A DNA stretch of 64,000 nt from Halococcoides cellulosivorans (lineage in GTDB: Archaea; Halobacteriota; Halobacteria; Halobacteriales; Haloarculaceae), in NCBI RefSeq assembly GCF_003058365.1, contig NZ_CP028858.1, positions 1,846,836-1,910,835 on the forward strand, given 5' to 3'. Of the stretch, positions 5,305-38,624 are shown piece by piece. Each line of letters opens with the position of its first letter. Position 1 is the stretch's first letter. The notes under the pieces are model-generated. The model was not told the DNA's origin, did no database searches, and saw only the letters and a program-made list of their open reading frames with translations. A program made the translations under genes and the position numbers.

Positions 5305-7887
<2,583 letters not shown>

Positions 7888-33369: not shown

Positions 33370-34530
33370 TCAGAAGAAATCGCGGAGGAACACGCGTTCG
33401 GTCGGCAGCCAGCGATCCAGCACGTCGAGAGCCGACCGGTTGGTGACGTCGATTCGATCACGCCGGGCAACGGTCGCGGGGCGGTGGGCCCCGACGACGA
33501 TGGCCGAGAGCGCCCGGACGCCCATCGTGAGTTCGGGCTCTTCGGTGGTCGGCTCGGCGCGCAGGTGCCCATCCGCTGGCGTGAGCGCGACGGTCGTTCG
33601 GTCCTCGGTCAGCGGATCGGAGACTGCGAGGACGACCCGCCCGTCGGCGTCCGGGCAGGGCAGTCCGTCGAGGGCCGCCACGGGATCGGTCACCCGCACC
33701 ATCGGTCCGGGCGCACAGGTGGACTCGATCGCGTCGGGACGCTCGACCATCGCGAACAGGTCGGTCTCGGCGGGCCGCTCGAAGCGCACGCGATCGATCT
33801 GGGGGCCGTGTCGCCCGAGAAAGCCCAGGAGCGCGCGATAAGCCCGGTGGTCGACGGCGTCGAGCGTCGCCACGTCGATCACGCCGTCCCTGACCTCGTA
33901 GGCGACGACGCCCGCGGGCGACCCGTCCCGGTCGTACCGATAGACGTGGCGGCGCTCGTCCCCGAACCGCCGGAAGACGCGCTCGCGCCACCACTGCTCG
34001 GTGCGATCGATCGCGAGCGTCTCCCCCGCGCCCGCGCGCCGCCCCACCGGCGCCACCGTCGCCCAGTCGTCGGGATCGATCGGCTGGACCCGGCCCGCCC
34101 CGTCGTCGAGGGTGGCCAGGACCGACGGCGGACAGTCGTAGGTCGTCATCGCCGTGGCCGTCGCCCACCCGAGCCGGCGATAGAACGCCGTCTCGAACGG
34201 CCAGAGCGCGACGATCGCGACGTCGTCGCCGGCGAACGACGCGACCGCCGCAGCGAGCAGGCGACGGGCGTGGCCCACACCGCGGTGCTCGGGTGGCGTC
34301 GCGACCCCGCCCAGACCGCCCAGCGTGACCCACGCCCCCCGAACACGGGCGTCGAAGCGGTACTCGATATCGACGCTGGAGAGCGTCTCGTCGACGAGTG
34401 CGACGCGTCGGCCCACCGCGTCGCTGCCGACCGACTCGACAGTGGGACCGGCCCCCGGGTCGAAGGCGTACTGCAGGATCTGATCGAACCGGGCGCGTTC
34501 GTCGGATGCGATCTGGCGATACTCGGACAT
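33370..34530 (-). CDS. Eis-like GNAT N-acetyltransferase with C-terminal SCP2-like domain
   Basis: GNAT core (RGVGHARRLL) and three-domain Eis architecture, about 390 aa. Confidence 0.6.
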   Translation of the reverse strand: MSEYRQIASDERARFDQILQYAFDPGAGPTVESVGSDAVGRRVALVDETLSSVDIEYRFDARVRGAWVTLGGLGGVATPPEHRGVGHARRLLAAAVASFAGDDVAIVALWPFETAFYRRLGWATATAMTTYDCPPSVLATLDDGAGRVQPIDPDDWATVAPVGRRAGAGETLAIDRTEQWWRERVFRRFGDERRHVYRYDRDGSPAGVVAYEVRDGVIDVATLDAVDHRAYRALLGFLGRHGPQIDRVRFERPAETDLFAMVERPDAIESTCAPGPMVRVTDPVAALDGLPCPDADGRVVLAVSDPLTEDRTTVALTPADGHLRAEPTTEEPELTMGVRALSAIVVGAHRPATVARRDRIDVTNRSALDVLDRWLPTERVFLRDFF

Positions 34531-34646
34531 GGACTCATCACGAATTTCCCCGAAAAAGAGCCTGTCGACGCCGGTTCGACCGGTCAGCGTGTCGTTCGCT
34601 CAGCCCCGCCACAACGCCCAAGACCCGTGAGACCGTATGTCACGAT

Positions 34647-34919
34647 ATGGAGTCGGCCTGGACCTGGATCCTGGTCTACGTGCTGGCCTTTGGGGTCTTC
34701 CAGTACGTCATGTACCGATACCTCCAGCGCGAGGACCAGGTCGGGCAGGCAGTGCCGGACACCCCCGACGGGGCCGCACCGCCATCGCCCGAGCCACGGC
34801 CGGGTGACGACCCAGACCTCGTCCGGTGTCCGAGTTGTGGCACGTCGAACGAGGCCGTCGGCACGTTCCGATACTGCCGGGACTGTCTCTCGGAGTTACC
34901 CCGAGGCTATCGGCGCTGA
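34647..34919 (+). CDS. Small membrane protein with C-terminal zinc ribbon
   Basis: One TM (WILVYVLAFGVFQYVMY) then CPSCG...CRDC. 46 bp upstream of the kaiC-like gene. Confidence 0.55.
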   Translation: MESAWTWILVYVLAFGVFQYVMYRYLQREDQVGQAVPDTPDGAAPPSPEPRPGDDPDLVRCPSCGTSNEAVGTFRYCRDCLSELPRGYRR

Positions 34920-34964
34920 GAATCACCGGGAAACGTTCATCCCCCTCTCGGAGCAATCACCGGC

Positions 34965-35651
34965 ATGCGCGTTTCGAGTGGCGTCCCCGGGTTCGACGAC
35001 CTCGTCCAAGGGGGGCTATTGACCGAACGGCTCTACGTCGTGAGCGGGCCACCGGGCAGCGGGAAGACCACCTTCTCGACCATGTTCATCATGGAAGGGG
35101 CCCGATCGGGCGAGAACTGCCTCTACGTGACGATGCACGAGACCGAAGAGGAACTCGTTCAGGACATGGCGGGGTTCGACTTCGGGTTCGAGAAGGCCGT
35201 CCAGTCGGATGCGATCCGATTTCTGAACCTCGTGACCGAGCAAGGGAAACGCGAGATCACGCAGTTCGGCTCCGACGGCGGCCTGACCAACCGGCTGGTG
35301 GGGTACATCGAGGCCAACGACGTCGACCGCGCGGTCATCGACTCGACGATGTTGCTCCAGCACTTCCTCTCGGACGCCAGCGACGAGATCACCGGCTTTC
35401 TGTCCGCGCTGAAACAGACCGACGCGACGATCGTGTTGATCTCGGAGATGACCGATCCGTCGGCGTACTCCGACGAGCACTACCTGGCTCACGGCGTGAT
35501 CTTCTTTCACAACTACCTCGAATCGGGCGGGATGACCCGTGGGATCCAGGTGATCAAGATGCGCGGGACCGCGATCGACTGTGACATCCACTCCATCGAG
35601 TTCACCGATCGCGGCCTCGTCGTCCATCCCGGGGAGAAGATCCGGGACTGA
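34965..35651 (+). CDS. KaiC-like / RecA-superfamily ATPase (single domain; signal-transduction type)
   Basis: GGL..ERLYVVSGPPGSGKTTFS Walker A, Walker B VIDS, and KaiC-like fold. Confidence 0.85.
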   Translation: MRVSSGVPGFDDLVQGGLLTERLYVVSGPPGSGKTTFSTMFIMEGARSGENCLYVTMHETEEELVQDMAGFDFGFEKAVQSDAIRFLNLVTEQGKREITQFGSDGGLTNRLVGYIEANDVDRAVIDSTMLLQHFLSDASDEITGFLSALKQTDATIVLISEMTDPSAYSDEHYLAHGVIFFHNYLESGGMTRGIQVIKMRGTAIDCDIHSIEFTDRGLVVHPGEKIRD

Positions 35652-35653
35652 CC

Positions 35654-36070
35654 ATGTCGCTGTACGACCGAACCTACGGCACCGACTGGGACGACCTCGA
35701 CCGGGAAAGCGTGATCGCGCGCGCGTTCGCGCTGGGCGTCGACGAGGCACTGGGCAATCCGAACCCCGAAGAGCGCGAGAGACTCGTCGAGACCATGGGG
35801 TCGGCCTACGATCGCAGCGTCGTCGATCTGGCCTACCAAGAGGGGCTGAAGAAGGCCTCGAACCGGACGCCGACCGGCGAGACCGACGAGAGATCCGTCT
35901 GGCGTGATCTCGTCGACGGCGACAGCGACGACCCCGTCGACGTCCCGCCGGACCCCACCGAGGGCGGGCGGACGTCGCTACCCTCCGCACTCTCCTCGAT
36001 CGAGGCGCTCGAACGCAAGGCCGAGGACAGTCGAGACTCCCTCCAGCGACCGGAGTTTCTCGACGGGTGA
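35654..36070 (+). CDS. Acidic hypothetical protein, translationally coupled to the KaiC-like ATPase
   Basis: Its ATG lies 3 nt after the KaiC-like stop. D/E-rich with no recognisable domain. Confidence 0.55.
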   Translation: MSLYDRTYGTDWDDLDRESVIARAFALGVDEALGNPNPEERERLVETMGSAYDRSVVDLAYQEGLKKASNRTPTGETDERSVWRDLVDGDSDDPVDVPPDPTEGGRTSLPSALSSIEALERKAEDSRDSLQRPEFLDG

Positions 36071-36114
36071 ACGACGAACGAAGGGGCTATGCGCCCAGGG
36101 ACCAAACATCTGGT

Positions 36115-36261
36115 ATGCAGTGTCATTACTGCGATCGGGAGGCGGACATCGCCGTCGAGAAAGACGGCATCCGGGTGGGCGTCTGCGAGGAGCATTTCCG
36201 CGAGCAGATCGACCGCCTCGAAGACCAGGACCTCCTCTCGGAAGTCGATCCGACCGAGTGA
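36115..36261 (+). CDS. Small zinc-ribbon protein (C-x2-C...C-x2-H); alternative GTG start at 36067
   Basis: MQCHYCDREADIAVEKDGIRVGVCEEHF. Follows the cassette in the same orientation. Confidence 0.4.
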   Translation: MQCHYCDREADIAVEKDGIRVGVCEEHFREQIDRLEDQDLLSEVDPTE

Positions 36262-36852
36262 TCAGACCACTGTGGTCACGATCGCCATCGCCGTCGCCGC
36301 CGCCGGCGCGATGGTGAGATTGTCGTCGATGACGTATCCTCGAACCGTCGGTTTGAGGCCGTCGGCCGCGGTCGCGGCGAGTGCGCCGGCGATCGCAGTC
36401 GTCGAAGGCACGAACGGCCAGGCCAGTCCGACACAGATCAAAAAGACGAGTGCGAGGACGGGGCCGGATTTCCGCCCCGGCGTACTCGACCGACTCACGA
36501 TCCCGCTGACGGGATCACCGATCGTCAACATGAGCATGGCAGGCACGGCCACGCGCGGGTCGAACGCGACTGCCGTGATCGCCATCCCGATCGCAAAGAG
36601 CGCGTAGCCCGCGAGGTTGTCGGCCTCGTAGGGCCGCGTCAGGTAATCGAAGATTCGCCAGTCCAGCCCGACCAGCAGGCGGACCGTCTCCAGCGCGAGT
36701 GCGCCGACGAGCATCACGATCACCAGGACGCGAATCGCCTGCCAGCCGACCTCCGCGACGAGCAGATAGCCGATGGGGATCGCACTCCCGGTGGCGTGGA
36801 CCGCCCGCCGCGCGATCGATCGGTCGGTCAGCGCGTCGACGACCCGATTCAC
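36262..36852 (-). CDS. Integral membrane protein, polyprenol/dolichol kinase-like (COG0170-like), tentative
   Basis: 6 TM, with a cytidylyltransferase/dolichol-kinase-like C-terminal motif. Immediately downstream of glyS on the same strand. Confidence 0.4.
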   Translation of the reverse strand: MNRVVDALTDRSIARRAVHATGSAIPIGYLLVAEVGWQAIRVLVIVMLVGALALETVRLLVGLDWRIFDYLTRPYEADNLAGYALFAIGMAITAVAFDPRVAVPAMLMLTIGDPVSGIVSRSSTPGRKSGPVLALVFLICVGLAWPFVPSTTAIAGALAATAADGLKPTVRGYVIDDNLTIAPAAATAMAIVTTVV

Positions 36853-36854
36853 CG

Positions 36855-38624
36855 TTACAGCTCCTCGAAGGACTGCTCGCCGTCACGAAGCCCGACGAGC
36901 ACCGCGTCGAGCTCGTCGATCGGAACGCGCACCTGGTCGGTGCTCGACCGATCCCGGACCGTGACGGTGTCGTCCTCGCTGGTCTCGTAGTCGACGGTCA
37001 CACAGTAGGGCGTCCCGATCTCGTCCTGACGACGGTAGCGTCGCCCGATCGCGCCCGAATCGTCGTAGGCGACCGCCAGGCCCGCCGCCCGGAGGTCCTC
37101 GACGATCGCACGCGCGCGGTCGTCCAGGCCGTCGGCGTCCATCAGCGGGAACACCGCGACCGTCGTCGGCGCGACCCGTGCCGGCAGTTCGAGGACGGTC
37201 CGTTCCTCGCCATCGATTTCGTCTTCGGTGAGAGAGTGATCGATCACGGTGTACAGCGCCCGGTCGATCCCGAGCGACGGTTCGATCACCTGCGGGTGGA
37301 CGTGCTCGCCCGACTCGGTGACCGTCTCGCGGGCAAAGCCCGTCGCCTCGATCGGCACGTCGAACGCCTCGTCCTCGACGGTGACGGTGATCGCCTCGCC
37401 CGGATCGACGGCCTCGAACGCCGCGGGATCGTCGGCCGCGCGGGCTTCGAGCGCGTCAGCGATCGCGGCGGCCGACCCACCGAACTCCGGGCCGAGCACG
37501 CTCATGTCCGGGTCGACCGTCGCGCGCTCGATCTCGCGAGGCTCGTCGTAGGCCTCGAAGACCGTAAAGGCCTCACCGGAGTGGGCCTCGTGTTTGTCGA
37601 GGTCGTAGCTCCCGCGGTCCGCGAACCCACCGAGTTCGATCCAGTTGCCGTCGATCTCGCTCTCGGCGTCCCAGCAGTCGCTGGCGTAGTGGGCACGCTC
37701 GCCCGCGCGGTGCTGACGGAATCGGAACCGATCCATATCGACGCCAATCGACCGATACCACTCCGCGGCGACGCCGAGATAGTACGCGATCCAGGGGTCG
37801 GCGACGATCCCCTCCGCGTGGGCCTCGGCGATCGTCAACTCGCGGACGGCCCCCTCGGCCGATCGATCGCCGTCCTCGACGGCGGCCTGGGCCTCGGCGG
37901 AATAGAACGGGGCCGTCACGTCCGCGACCGCATCGAGATCGGGGCCGTCACCCGATGGGTGGACGAACAGTTCGAGTTCGGCCTGGGTGAACTCCCGGAC
38001 GCGGATCAACGATCGTCGGGGGCTGATCTCGTTGCGGTAGGCCCGGCCGATCTGGGCGACGCCGAAGGGCAGTTGCCCACGTGCGTACTCGGCGAGTTGA
38101 GGAAACTCCACGAAGATGCCCTGGGCAGTCTCGGGGCGGAGATAGCCGGGATCGCTGGATCCCGGGCCGATCTGGGTCTCGAACATCAGATTGAACGGTT
38201 CGATCGCCTGGTCAGCGAGACCCGTCCCGCAGGTCGGACACGCGAGTTCGAGTTCGGCGACGATCCCCTCCATGCGCTCGATCGGCAGCGACTCGGCGTC
38301 TTCGCGGTCGGTGTGGTCCTCGATGAGGTGATCGGCGCGATGCGAACGCCCACACTCGGGGCACTCGATCAGCGTGTCGGCAAACCCGTCGAGGTGTCCC
38401 GAGGCCTCGAAGACGGGTTCGGGCAACACCGTCGGCGCGTCGACGGTCATGTGGCCCTCGGCGACGACGAACCGATCGCGCCAGGTGGCTTCGAGGTTGG
38501 TCTTGAGCGGTTCGCCCCGCGGACCGAACGTGTAGAATCCGGAGACACCGCCGTAGACCTCGCCCGTCGGGACGAAAAAGCCGCGCCGCTTGGCGAGTTC
38601 GATCACCGCCTCGCTGTCGGCCAT
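36855..38624 (-). CDS. glyS: Glycyl-tRNA synthetase (archaeal/eukaryotic alpha2 type)
   Basis: Class II aaRS motifs, zinc ribbon CPECG, and a C-terminal anticodon-binding domain. Confidence 0.95.
   Translation of the reverse strand: MADSEAVIELAKRRGFFVPTGEVYGGVSGFYTFGPRGEPLKTNLEATWRDRFVVAEGHMTVDAPTVLPEPVFEASGHLDGFADTLIECPECGRSHRADHLIEDHTDREDAESLPIERMEGIVAELELACPTCGTGLADQAIEPFNLMFETQIGPGSSDPGYLRPETAQGIFVEFPQLAEYARGQLPFGVAQIGRAYRNEISPRRSLIRVREFTQAELELFVHPSGDGPDLDAVADVTAPFYSAEAQAAVEDGDRSAEGAVRELTIAEAHAEGIVADPWIAYYLGVAAEWYRSIGVDMDRFRFRQHRAGERAHYASDCWDAESEIDGNWIELGGFADRGSYDLDKHEAHSGEAFTVFEAYDEPREIERATVDPDMSVLGPEFGGSAAAIADALEARAADDPAAFEAVDPGEAITVTVEDEAFDVPIEATGFARETVTESGEHVHPQVIEPSLGIDRALYTVIDHSLTEDEIDGEERTVLELPARVAPTTVAVFPLMDADGLDDRARAIVEDLRAAGLAVAYDDSGAIGRRYRRQDEIGTPYCVTVDYETSEDDTVTVRDRSSTDQVRVPIDELDAVLVGLRDGEQSFEEL

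What the first reader, a model, noticed from the sequence alone, without database searches (positions are those of the whole stretch)
34647..36261. KaiC-like ATPase cassette with membrane zinc-ribbon protein and two small translationally coupled partners
Four co-oriented genes make up the cassette: a 90-aa TM plus zinc-ribbon protein, a single-domain KaiC/RecA-like ATPase, a 138-aa acidic protein whose ATG is 3 nt from the KaiC stop, and a 48-64-aa CxxC..CxxH mini zinc-ribbon. Archaeal KaiC-like ATPases are proposed signal-transduction hubs that partner with variable small proteins, and this particular partner set is not a described module. It sits divergently from an Eis-like acetyltransferase.
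Basis: inference. Interest (0 to 1): 0.6.

Follow-up and report, generated by a model that had tools for sequence, protein, structure and literature searches.

The report
Haloarchaeal cirD operon with small neighbours
This locus is the Halococcoides copy of the haloarchaeal KaiC-like gene cirD, which is always followed by a tightly coupled small gene of unknown function; the two zinc-ribbon genes beside it are lineage-specific neighbours, not parts of one four-gene machine.

Summary
All four co-oriented genes exist at 34647-36261, and each belongs to a conserved family: DUF7577 (TM plus Zn-ribbon), a KaiC domain, DUF8057 and DUF6757. They are not one cassette.

- **Conserved core.** The KaiC-like gene (34965-35651) and the 138-aa gene (35654-36070) are adjacent in 49 of 49 haloarchaeal loci examined. 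The spacing is usually -4 to +10 nt.
- **Identity.** The ATPase is the ortholog (63% identity) of Haloferax volcanii CirD (HVO_2232), a named "cryptic circadian" KaiC homolog. The 138-aa protein is the ortholog of HVO_2233, an unstudied conserved hypothetical.
- **Promoter.** The pair has its own conserved upstream region: a TATC-N5-TGAGAAT motif followed by a BRE/TATA-like element about 23 nt before the ATG.
- **DUF7577.** It lies upstream only in Haloarculaceae and has its own conserved upstream sequence.
- **DUF6757.** It starts at ATG 36115, 44 nt after the DUF8057 stop, so it is not translationally coupled. In relatives it follows a PHP gene that is missing here.
- **DUF8057 structure.** A confident roughly 90-residue helical bundle, a disordered acidic linker and a conserved C-terminal PxFL motif, with no detectable structural relative.

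Most likely DUF8057 is an obligate partner or adaptor of a CirD hexamer. The locus is a new member of a known kind and of moderate interest.

The parts
34610..34646 (+). Conserved upstream region of the DUF7577 gene (CACAACGCCCAAGACCCGTGAGACCGTATGTCACGAT); probable own promoter or short leader
   Evidence: The same ~40-nt pattern (CCAAACAcCCAAGTgnCGTGnCAACGTATnnCAC-nn-ATG) precedes the DUF7577 ATG in 15 other Haloarculaceae loci. That it is a promoter is inferred; no TSS data were available.
34647..34919 (+). DUF7577 gene: 90-aa protein with one N-terminal TM helix, a Pro/acidic linker and a C-terminal CxxC...CxxC zinc ribbon
   Evidence: Pfam PF24463, 5.7e-13, 48.7 bits against a cutoff of 28. 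GC3 is 0.82. Orthologs lie upstream of the KaiC gene on the same strand in 20 of 23 Haloarculaceae loci with enough upstream sequence, and in 0 of 23 loci of other families.
34908..34923 (+). Conserved semi-palindromic motif TATCGGCGCTGAGAAT (family consensus TATCA-N4-TGAnAAC); candidate regulator-binding site upstream of the cirD promoter. It contains the DUF7577 stop codon.
   Evidence: It is the only match in the 64-kb window (expected 0.01). TATCANNNNTGANAA occurs exactly once in each of 19 Haloarculaceae loci, always 43-58 nt before the KaiC ATG. In some Haloferacaceae loci (L020, L034, L037) it appears as the palindrome TATCA-N4-TGATA; H. volcanii L047 has a degenerate version, TCTCAATTTCGATAC. 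Its function is inferred.
34928..34942 (+). BRE/TATA-like element GGGAAACGTTCATCC of the cirD-DUF8057 operon, ending 23 nt before the ATG. This spacing implies a leaderless or near-leaderless mRNA.
   Evidence: It aligns with GGAACGATTATAA (Haloferacaceae) and AAAGGTCTATA (Haloarculaceae) at the same distance from the ATG in 26 aligned loci. That it is a promoter is inferred from position and conservation. The TATA part is weaker here than in relatives.
34965..35651 (+). cirD ortholog: 228-aa single-domain KaiC-family (RecA-superfamily) P-loop ATPase
   Evidence: Pfam KaiC PF06745, 1.9e-44. It is 63% identical over its full length to H. volcanii P0133. P0133 is HVO_2232 CirD, shown by gene order and by exact matches of both published cirD qRT-PCR primers. 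Walker A GPPGSGKT, Walker B-like RAVIDS and KMRGT align with the KaiC motifs.
35654..36070 (+). DUF8057 gene (ortholog of HVO_2233): 138-aa acidic protein, translationally coupled to cirD by a 2-nt spacer
   Evidence: It lies directly downstream of the KaiC gene in 49 of 49 haloarchaeal loci. It is 35% identical to the H. volcanii protein. Family PF26244 has only 157 clusters at 50% identity among 1.84 billion representatives. In the AF2 model, residues 1-90 form a helical bundle with pLDDT above 90 over most of the bundle, residues 91-127 are disordered, and the C-terminal P133/L136 motif is conserved. HVO_2233 was detected by proteomics.
36080..36092 (+). Promoter-like element GAAGGGGCTATGC upstream of DUF6757
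   Evidence: It corresponds to the conserved GCAGGGTTCAATGC found 24-37 nt before the DUF6757 ATG in 16 other loci. Inferred.
36115..36261 (+). DUF6757 gene: 48-aa CxxC...CxxH mini zinc-binding protein. Probably an independent unit whose usual upstream partner, a PHP gene, is missing here.
   Evidence: Pfam PF20542, 1.2e-23; the match starts at residue 17 of the 64-aa ORF. Orthologs start MxCHYCDR. In 16 of 17 other loci that have it, a PHP-domain gene lies between DUF8057 and DUF6757. No PHP homolog was found in the 64-kb window.

Best explanation
The locus is the Halococcoides ortholog of the haloarchaeal cirD-HVO_2233 operon, flanked by two small genes that are separate transcription units.

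**Shown**
- A single-domain KaiC-family ATPase gene and a DUF8057 gene form an invariant, tightly spaced pair across at least three sampled lineages: Haloarculaceae, Haloferacaceae and the Halanaeroarchaeum/Halodesulfurarchaeum group.
- DUF8057 family members also occur in Natrialbaceae.
- The pair sits behind a conserved BRE/TATA-like element and a conserved semi-palindromic upstream motif.

**Inferred**
- CirD assembles into a RecA-type ring, most likely a hexamer as in KaiC, that hydrolyses ATP and probably autophosphorylates.
- DUF8057 is made in fixed proportion through translational coupling and binds the ring as its dedicated adaptor or regulator.
- One end of DUF8057, either the folded helical bundle or the C-terminal PxFL(x)R peptide on its flexible acidic tether, docks on CirD. 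The other end contacts the downstream target.
- The nucleotide or phosphorylation state of CirD is thereby converted into an output.
- In H. volcanii, cirD transcript levels are up to about 10-16 fold higher in the dark. CirD protein falls sharply in conditioned (quorum-sensing) medium. The module therefore probably reports light/dark or population-density state, and the conserved upstream motif is the likely site of that transcriptional control.
- DUF7577, a membrane-anchored protein whose ribbon is probably cytoplasmic by the positive-inside rule, may be a Haloarculaceae-specific tether or input.
- DUF6757 most likely belongs with the PHP gene that has been lost here.
For: - **Family and motifs.** KaiC domain and catalytic motifs.
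- **Orthology to CirD.** 63% identity over full length, whereas H. volcanii Cir paralogs share only 25-30% (PMC3941300). The gene order HVO_2228 PHP / 2229 / cirD 2232 / 2233 / msrB 2234 / UspA 2239 matches L047. Both cirD primers match exactly.
- **Pair conservation and coupling.** 49 of 49 loci; spacing is -4 to +10 nt in nearly all and 44 nt in the two Halodesulfurarchaeum-type contigs.
- **Taxonomic range.** The DUF8057 family is small and, wherever a source organism is named, haloarchaeal, including Natrialbaceae.
- **DUF8057 architecture.**
- **Conserved promoter and motif.**
- **Expression.** cirD transcript is 10-16 fold higher in the dark. CirD protein shows log2FC -3.28 in conditioned medium. 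HVO_2233 protein was detected and moved in the same direction, -1.09, without statistics.
- **Separate upstream elements for DUF7577 and DUF6757.**
Against: - No direct evidence shows that CirD and DUF8057 bind each other. No complex model was run, and about 40 sequence pairs are too few for coevolution analysis.
- The first of the two catalytic glutamates of KaiC is His in all CirD orthologs (TMHE[T/S]), so the enzymology may differ from KaiC.
- Oligomeric state, ATPase activity and autophosphorylation are untested for any CirD.
- The promoter and operator assignments rest on conservation only, and the window's TATA-like element is degenerate (GTTCAT).
- The locus sample was gathered with exact peptide patterns and is biased towards two families. 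Adjacency in Natrialbaceae was not checked.
- The light-dependent cir data come from one qRT-PCR study.
Confidence: 0.75

Rival explanations
1. One reading: all four genes (DUF7577, KaiC, DUF8057, DUF6757) form one functional cassette, in which a KaiC hub works with a membrane Zn-ribbon input and two small outputs.
For: - All four genes are co-oriented and closely spaced in the window.
- DUF7577 stays upstream of cirD on the same strand in several Haloarculaceae genera although the outer flanks differ.
- DUF6757 stays within about 2 kb downstream in 17 of 26 Haloarculaceae loci.
Against: - Neither Zn-ribbon gene is present near cirD in 19 Haloferacaceae loci or in 4 Halanaeroarchaeum/Halodesulfurarchaeum-type loci.
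- DUF7577 is missing from Halapricum loci. DUF6757 is missing in Halomicrobium and Halorientalis.
- Unrelated genes are inserted between the supposed parts: Nmad3, PHP and DUF5789.
- Each gene has its own conserved upstream element.
- The DUF8057-DUF6757 adjacency in the window arises from the absence of the PHP gene.
Confidence: 0.1
2. A recombination or repair role. The ATPase would be a RadB/Rad55-like accessory of the RecA/RadA system rather than a signalling KaiC. DUF8057 would be a mediator whose C-terminal PxFL peptide mimics a RadA-type polymerisation motif.
For: - NCBI names the family 'RAD55 family ATPase'.
- There are weak RadB/RadA/DnaB profile hits.
- In Halanaeroarchaeum/Halodesulfurarchaeum-type contigs the pair lies next to MCM.
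- DUF8057 has a conserved aromatic C-terminal peptide on a flexible tether.
Against: - The KaiC profile scores far higher (152 bits) than the RecA profile (13.6 bits) or the RadB models (E about 4e-4).
- The best PDB matches are KaiC CI domains.
- No DNA-binding domain was detected.
- The MCM neighbourhood is confined to one lineage.
- Published cirD data point to light and quorum responses, and the knockout has no growth defect.
- The PxFL resemblance to the FxxA motif comes from memory and was not tested.
Confidence: 0.08
3. DUF8057 is not a stable partner of CirD. It would instead be a substrate, or an antagonist such as an inhibitor or anti-adaptor that is phosphorylated or sequestered. 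Alternatively it is functionally independent and merely co-expressed.
For: - DUF8057 evolves much faster than CirD (35% against 63% identity between Halococcoides and Haloferax).
- It has a long disordered Ser/Thr/acidic region.
- Natrialbaceae variants carry an extra roughly 100-residue low-complexity tail.
Against: - Invariant adjacency and tight spacing in all 49 loci argue for a stoichiometric relationship.
- No Ser/Thr position in the linker is invariant. The invariant residues are in the helical bundle and the C-terminal PxFL motif.
Confidence: 0.07

Closest known systems
Haloferax volcanii CirD (HVO_2232), one of four 'cryptic circadian' KaiC homologs (Maniscalco et al. 2014, PMC3941300), with its downstream gene HVO_2233
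   Same: - The ATPases are orthologous: 63% identity, the same length class and a single KaiC domain.
- The same DUF8057 gene lies immediately downstream.
- The upstream BRE/TATA-like element is conserved in both. The TATCA-N4-TGA motif is clear in Haloarculaceae and in some Haloferacaceae but degenerate in H. volcanii itself.
   Different: - The Halococcoides locus has a DUF7577 gene upstream and a DUF6757 gene downstream. H. volcanii has an aldo-keto reductase and msrB in those positions.
- The H. volcanii protein has a 6-residue insertion.
- Nothing is known experimentally about the Halococcoides genes.
Cyanobacterial KaiC, the clock ATPase/autokinase working with KaiA and KaiB
   Same: The same domain family, with Walker A, Walker B and KxRGT motifs. 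The best matches among solved structures are KaiC, and the CI half aligns best.
   Different: - One domain instead of two.
- The first catalytic Glu is His.
- There is no C-terminal A-loop tail.
- No KaiA or KaiB is encoded alongside.
- No oscillator behaviour has been shown.
H. volcanii CirA (HVO_1212) and ArlH, KaiC-like regulators of archaellum genes and of the archaellum motor
   Same: They are single-domain archaeal KaiC-like ATPases thought to act as regulatory switches through partner proteins (PMC10983859, PMC13286277).
   Different: - They are different paralogs. CirA lies inside the arl cluster, whereas this gene does not.
- ArlH profiles score only 38 bits against a cutoff of 215.
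- Their partners (ArlI, and possibly CsmR) are unrelated to DUF8057.
The archaeal KaiC-like 'signal transduction hub' concept (Makarova, Galperin and Koonin 2017, mBio)
   Same: A KaiC-like ATPase encoded with small, variable, uncharacterised partners.
   Different: I could not read that paper. Whether the CirD-DUF8057 arCOG pair is listed there is therefore unknown. This comparison is from memory and from citing papers only.

Membership tests
KaiC family (Pfam PF06745) | Full-length match to the KaiC ATPase domain profile above the gathering score | tested here: met
   152.2 bits against a cutoff of 26.6; residues 3-224 match profile positions 1-230 of 231.
KaiC family (Pfam PF06745) | Walker A, Walker B and a trans-acting Arg (KxRG) for ring ATPase activity | tested here: met
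   GPPGSGKT, RAVIDS and KMRGT align with the KaiC motifs. They are invariant in 39 orthologs.
KaiC family (Pfam PF06745) | Pair of catalytic glutamates (EE) after strand 2 | tested here: not met
   KaiC F-E-E aligns with M-H-E in the query. All orthologs have TMHE[T/S]. One Glu is retained and the other is His.
Bona fide circadian KaiC (NCBIfam TIGR02655 / NF006799) | Two tandem KaiC domains and a score above the equivalog cutoff | tested here: not met
   The protein has a single domain of 228 aa. It scores 73.9 against a cutoff of 546 and 116.2 against a cutoff of 408.
Bona fide circadian KaiC (NCBIfam TIGR02655 / NF006799) | KaiA and KaiB partners encoded in the genome or locus | not tested
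   Neither is among the four cassette genes or the immediate flanks. The rest of the genome was not searched.
CirD orthologous group (H. volcanii HVO_2232) | Much higher identity to CirD than Cir paralogs show to one another | tested here: met
   63% identity over 232 columns, against 25-30% among H. volcanii Cir paralogs (PMC3941300). The CirA, CirB and CirC sequences themselves were not compared here.
CirD orthologous group (H. volcanii HVO_2232) | Conserved synteny with the HVO_2233-type (DUF8057) gene immediately downstream | tested here: met
   Found in 49 of 49 loci, including H. volcanii L047. The identity of L047 with HVO_2232 is shown by primers and gene order.
DUF8057 (Pfam PF26244) | Match to the family profile | tested here: met
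   The precomputed PF26244 hit is on P0001, which is 99% identical, and on all 117 homologs. A profile of 45 members retrieves the family at E down to 2.4e-50. The local Pfam copy returned no hit for this protein or for ten other family members, probably because it lacks the model.
DUF7577 (Pfam PF24463) | Zn-ribbon match above the gathering score | tested here: met
   48.7 bits against a cutoff of 28, residues 59-85.
DUF6757 (Pfam PF20542) | Match above the gathering score | tested here: met
   83.4 bits against a cutoff of 27.
Known anti-phage defence systems (PADLOC) | Significant match of any of the four proteins to a defence-system model | tested here: not met
   There were only weak P-loop-level hits for the ATPase (mad8 1.2e-5, MkoA 1.4e-4) and none for the three small proteins.

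The most novel reading that the evidence does not exclude
CirD plus DUF8057 would be a self-contained two-protein post-translational switch or timer specific to Halobacteria. DUF8057 would play the role that KaiA or KaiB plays for cyanobacterial KaiC. Its C-terminal PxFL peptide would gate the nucleotide or phosphorylation cycle of a single-ring KaiC. The conserved TATCA-N4-TGA motif would close a light- or density-responsive transcriptional feedback loop. That would give a mechanistic handle on the long-standing question of whether archaea have Kai-like timekeeping.
Probability: 0.1. Interest if true: 0.75.

Novelty: new member of a known kind. Interest (0 to 1): 0.38.

Why it matters
KaiC-like ATPases are among the most abundant and least understood regulators in archaea. 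cirD is one of the few with any experimental record: light/dark-dependent transcription, arrhythmic cir expression in knockouts, and a strong drop in quorum-sensing medium.

- **A testable partner.** cirD never occurs without a tightly coupled DUF8057 gene (HVO_2233). This gives the field a specific candidate partner in a genetically tractable organism.
- **A possible confound.** The published cirD knockout is a 122-bp internal deletion, which shifts the reading frame. It may also have disturbed expression of the coupled downstream gene.
- **A site to probe.** The conserved upstream motif is a defined place to look for the regulator behind the light or density response.
- **For genome scanning.** A tidy four-gene row in one genome can be a by-product of local gene loss rather than a functional module.

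Tried and rejected
- **Exact look-up of the window's KaiC protein in assemblies.** Not on record. I used orthologs instead.
- **Is the ATPase CirA?** Rejected. cirA (HVO_1212) lies in the arl cluster.
- **UniProt name 'Circ4'.** The UniProt name for the H. volcanii protein gave no literature hits. The link to cirD came from a proteomics supplement and from primer matching.
- **Makarova et al. 2017.** The paper is not held, so I could not check whether this pair is listed there.
- **Literature on DUF8057.** None found.
- **Sequence search of DUF8057 against the PDB.** Only a chance hit at E=0.093.
- **Domain fusions of DUF8057 as functional clues.** The longer members (Natrialbaceae) carry only low-complexity acidic tails with no Pfam domain.
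- **Defence-system reading.** No PADLOC support.
- **Is the PHP gene near cirD the same in both families?** No. The Haloarculaceae and Haloferacaceae PHP proteins share only about 31-33% identity over the first 100-120 residues, so they are different paralogs.
- **Bacterial-type promoter/terminator scan.** Not used, because haloarchaeal promoters are outside its scope. I used cross-species conservation of upstream regions instead.
Full report
**What is in the window.** The sequence is high-GC haloarchaeal DNA. It is essentially identical to Halococcoides cellulosivorans: the KaiC-like protein is 100% and the 138-aa protein 99% identical to proteins of that species. The species belongs to the family Haloarculaceae. 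Between a divergent Eis-like GNAT gene (33370-34530, minus strand) and a convergent membrane-protein gene (36262-36852, minus strand) lie four plus-strand genes:
- 34647-34919: 90 aa, with one N-terminal hydrophobic helix and a C-terminal CxxC...CxxC ribbon. Pfam DUF7577, 48.7 bits.
- 34965-35651: 228 aa. Pfam KaiC domain, E=1.9e-44, covering the whole protein.
- 35654-36070: 138 aa, pI 4.2, starting 2 nt after the KaiC stop codon. Family PF26244/DUF8057.
- 36115-36261: 48 aa, CxxC...CxxH. Pfam DUF6757, 83.4 bits.

All four genes have GC3 of 0.82-0.89, as expected for real genes in this genome. The 64-aa GTG form of the last gene is not supported, because the Pfam match and all orthologs begin at the internal Met, M-x-CHYCDR. 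The gene starts 44 nt after the DUF8057 stop and is not translationally coupled.

**Neighbourhood conservation.** A scan of one genome per species gave 38 haloarchaeal loci encoding close relatives of the ATPase (60-83% identity), plus 5 distant DPANN or bacterial loci. Look-ups of individual orthologs added 11 more haloarchaeal loci. I searched all of them with tblastn and with profile HMMs built from the orthologs.
- **DUF8057.** It lies immediately downstream of the ATPase gene in 49 of 49 haloarchaeal loci. These cover Haloarculaceae (Halapricum, Halosimplex, Haloarcula, Halomicrobium, Halorhabdus, Halorientalis), Haloferacaceae (Haloferax, Halobellus, Halogeometricum, Halopelagius, Haloquadratum) and Halanaeroarchaeum/Halodesulfurarchaeum-type MAGs. 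The spacing is -4 to +10 nt in nearly all and 44 nt in two contigs.
- **DUF7577.** It is upstream on the same strand in 20 of 23 Haloarculaceae loci with enough upstream sequence. The distance is 45-900 nt, sometimes with a tandem duplicate or an inserted Nmad3 gene. It is absent from all 23 loci of the other lineages and from two Halapricum loci.
- **DUF6757.** It is downstream in 17 of 26 Haloarculaceae loci and in none of the others. In 16 of those 17 a PHP-domain gene lies between DUF8057 and DUF6757. The usual order is cirD, DUF8057, PHP, DUF6757, often followed by a cupin/Zn-ribbon gene. The window has no PHP homolog anywhere in its 64 kb, so the DUF8057-DUF6757 juxtaposition here reflects the absence of that gene.
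- **Eis-like gene.** It is found in none of the other loci.

The only module conserved across these lineages is the ATPase-DUF8057 pair.

**Identity of the ATPase.** The H. volcanii ortholog is P0133 (ADE03950.1, 234 aa). It is 63% identical to the window protein over its full length. Its neighbours on contig L047 run, in order: trpD2-like, ahbA-like, PHP, amine oxidase, HAD, aldo-keto reductase, KaiC, DUF8057, MsrB and, further on, Usp. A proteomics supplement for H. volcanii lists exactly this order: HVO_2228 PHP, HVO_2229 amine oxidoreductase, HVO_2232 cirD, HVO_2233 conserved hypothetical, HVO_2234 msrB, HVO_2239 UspA (PMC12240190). Both cirD qRT-PCR primers published by Maniscalco et al. 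(PMC3941300) match the L047 KaiC gene exactly. [quoted passage not shown] The window gene is therefore the cirD ortholog, and the 138-aa gene is the HVO_2233 ortholog (35% identity). It is not cirA, which sits in the archaellum cluster as HVO_1212.

**What is known about CirD.**
- cirD transcripts are about 16-fold higher in constant dark than in constant light, and rise about 10-fold in each dark phase of a 12:12 cycle.
- Single cir knockouts make expression of the remaining cir genes arrhythmic, without a growth defect (PMC3941300).
- CirD protein drops strongly in conditioned (quorum-sensing) medium (log2FC -3.28) and from early to late log phase (-1.91).
- HVO_2233 protein was detected and moved in the same direction (-1.09, no statistics).
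- I found no paper that mentions HVO_2233/DUF8057 or treats the two genes as a unit.
- The Makarova et al. 2017 survey of archaeal KaiC neighbourhoods is not held, so I cannot exclude that the pair is tabulated there.
- The published cirD knockout is a 122-bp internal deletion. Because 122 is not a multiple of three, it may have affected the coupled downstream gene.

**The ATPase itself.** It aligns best with the CI half of cyanobacterial KaiC. Walker A (GPPGSGKT), Walker B (RAVIDS) and the KMRGT motif are present. The EE catalytic pair of KaiC, however, is H-E, and this holds in all 39 orthologs compared. It is a single domain and falls far below the NCBIfam cutoffs for clock KaiC, for the archaeal KaiC subfamilies and for ArlH. 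It is a KaiC-family protein but not a clock-type KaiC.

**The partner.** DUF8057 is a small family: 157 clusters at 50% identity among 1.84 billion representatives. Wherever a source organism is named, it is haloarchaeal, including Natrialbaceae, whose members carry an extra low-complexity tail. Invariant residues are Y4, W12, R23, G28, E40, E63, G64, W83 and L86 in the N-terminal part, and P110 and P133 (with L136 nearly invariant) near the C-terminus. AlphaFold2 with a 45-sequence alignment gave three regions:
- a confident five-helix bundle for residues 1-90, with pLDDT above 90 for most of it;
- a disordered acidic/proline segment at residues 91-127;
- a short helix at the conserved C-terminal PxFL motif.

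**Transcription units.** I aligned the 85 nt upstream of the ATPase ATG from 26 loci of both families. This shows a conserved BRE/TATA-like element: GGAACGATTATAA in Haloferacaceae, AAAGGTCTATA in Haloarculaceae and GGGAAACGTTCATCC at 34928-34942 in the window. It ends 22-24 nt before the ATG, the spacing expected for a leaderless haloarchaeal mRNA. About 8 nt further upstream lies a conserved semi-palindrome, TATCA-N4-TGAnAAC. It is a full TATCA-N4-TGATA palindrome in some Haloferacaceae loci (L020, L034, L037) and degenerate in H. volcanii itself.
- In the window the motif is TATCGGCGCTGAGAAT at 34908-34923. It is the only match in 64 kb (expected 0.01), and it includes the stop codon of the DUF7577 gene.
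- In 19 Haloarculaceae loci the motif occurs exactly once, always at the same position.
- DUF7577 and DUF6757 each have their own conserved upstream sequence.

The most economical reading is three units: DUF7577, then cirD-DUF8057, then DUF6757. These promoter assignments rest on conservation and position only.

**How it most likely works.** The shown steps are orthology to cirD, an invariant and tightly spaced gene pair, a conserved dedicated upstream region, and the expression of both proteins in H. volcanii. The inferred steps follow.
- CirD forms a RecA-type ring with ATPase and possibly autokinase activity.
- DUF8057 is produced in fixed ratio and binds the ring as a dedicated adaptor or regulator that links its nucleotide or phosphorylation state to a target.
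- Transcription of the pair responds to light/dark or cell-density signals through the upstream motif.
- DUF7577 may tether or feed into the module in Haloarculaceae. Its basic residues after the helix suggest a cytoplasmic ribbon.
- DUF6757 more likely belongs with the PHP gene.

I put about 0.9 on the orthology and the two-gene operon, and about 0.5-0.6 on a physical CirD-DUF8057 complex with an adaptor role.

**Alternatives.** All three rank well below the main explanation; the evidence is set out under the rival explanations.
- A true four-gene cassette.
- A RadB/Rad55-like repair role.
- DUF8057 as a substrate or antagonist of CirD rather than a stable partner.

A defence-system reading has no support.

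**Verdict.** The locus is a new member of a known kind, namely a KaiC-like regulatory ATPase with a lineage-specific small partner, and specifically the cirD locus. Its value is that it defines CirD's invariant partner and a candidate operator, both directly testable in H. volcanii. Interest is moderate.

Noticed in passing
window 34908-34942; L005 4944-4975; L047 about 6943-6975: A conserved semi-palindromic motif (TATCA-N4-TGAnAAC) followed by a BRE/TATA-like element lies upstream of cirD orthologs in two haloarchaeal families. It occurs once per locus and always at the same distance from the ATG. In the window it overlaps the stop codon of the upstream DUF7577 gene.
   Followed up: partly
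window 36070-36115, compared with L005 6101-7186 and L053 5093-6404: In most Haloarculaceae a PHP-domain phosphoesterase gene sits between DUF8057 and DUF6757. The window has no PHP homolog in 64 kb, yet it keeps a DUF6757 promoter-like element (GAAGGGGCTATGC). This points to a clean loss or relocation of the PHP gene in this lineage. L006 also lacks the PHP gene but keeps a 0.5-kb spacer.
   Followed up: partly
L047 3204-4073 (-), L052 2354-3133 (-), compared with L005 6224-7036 (+): PHP-domain genes occur near cirD in both Haloferacaceae (HVO_2228; directly divergent in a Haloquadratum MAG) and Haloarculaceae. They are different PHP paralogs, about 31-33% identical over the N-terminal 100-120 residues only. 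Whether this recurrent neighbourhood is functional (a phosphatase for a KaiC-like autokinase?) or coincidental is open.
   Followed up: partly
H. volcanii cirD, L047 7001-7705 (literature, PMC3941300): The published cirD knockout is a 122-bp internal deletion, which is not a multiple of three. Because HVO_2233 starts 10 nt after the cirD stop codon, the mutant phenotype may include effects on the downstream partner.
   Followed up: no
L015 5001-5681: In one MAG (Halobacteriales archaeon QS_1_68_17) the cirD reading frame contains an in-frame stop about 290 nt into the gene, although the rest of the gene and DUF8057 are intact. This is a sequencing or assembly error, or a recent pseudogene.
   Followed up: no
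L009, L012, L016-L019 (for example L018 4046-4330 and 4580-4846): The DUF7577 TM/Zn-ribbon gene is tandemly duplicated upstream of cirD in several Halosimplex-like genomes and MAGs.
   Followed up: no
Proteins P0281, P0294, P0306, P0323 (Natrialbaceae): DUF8057 members from Natrialbaceae are 230-260 aa long. After the PxFL motif they carry a second short conserved motif (G-E/D-R-T/S-V/I-F-G-R) and a long acidic low-complexity tail. One of them is annotated as plasmid-borne.
   Followed up: partly
L005 7537-8004, L004 3027-3503, L028 2442-2924: A 155-160-aa cupin-like protein with a C-terminal double CxxC zinc ribbon follows DUF6757 in many Haloarculaceae loci. It is absent from the window.
   Followed up: no
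window 36262-36852 (-): A 196-aa multi-pass membrane protein has no Pfam or NCBIfam match. It is convergent with DUF6757, with no spacer between the two stop codons. It is followed by glycyl-tRNA synthetase (36855-38624, minus strand).
   Followed up: no
L048 959-3061, L051 1-3209: In Halanaeroarchaeum/Halodesulfurarchaeum-type contigs the cirD-DUF8057 pair lies divergently next to the MCM helicase gene. In one contig that gene contains inteins.
   Followed up: no
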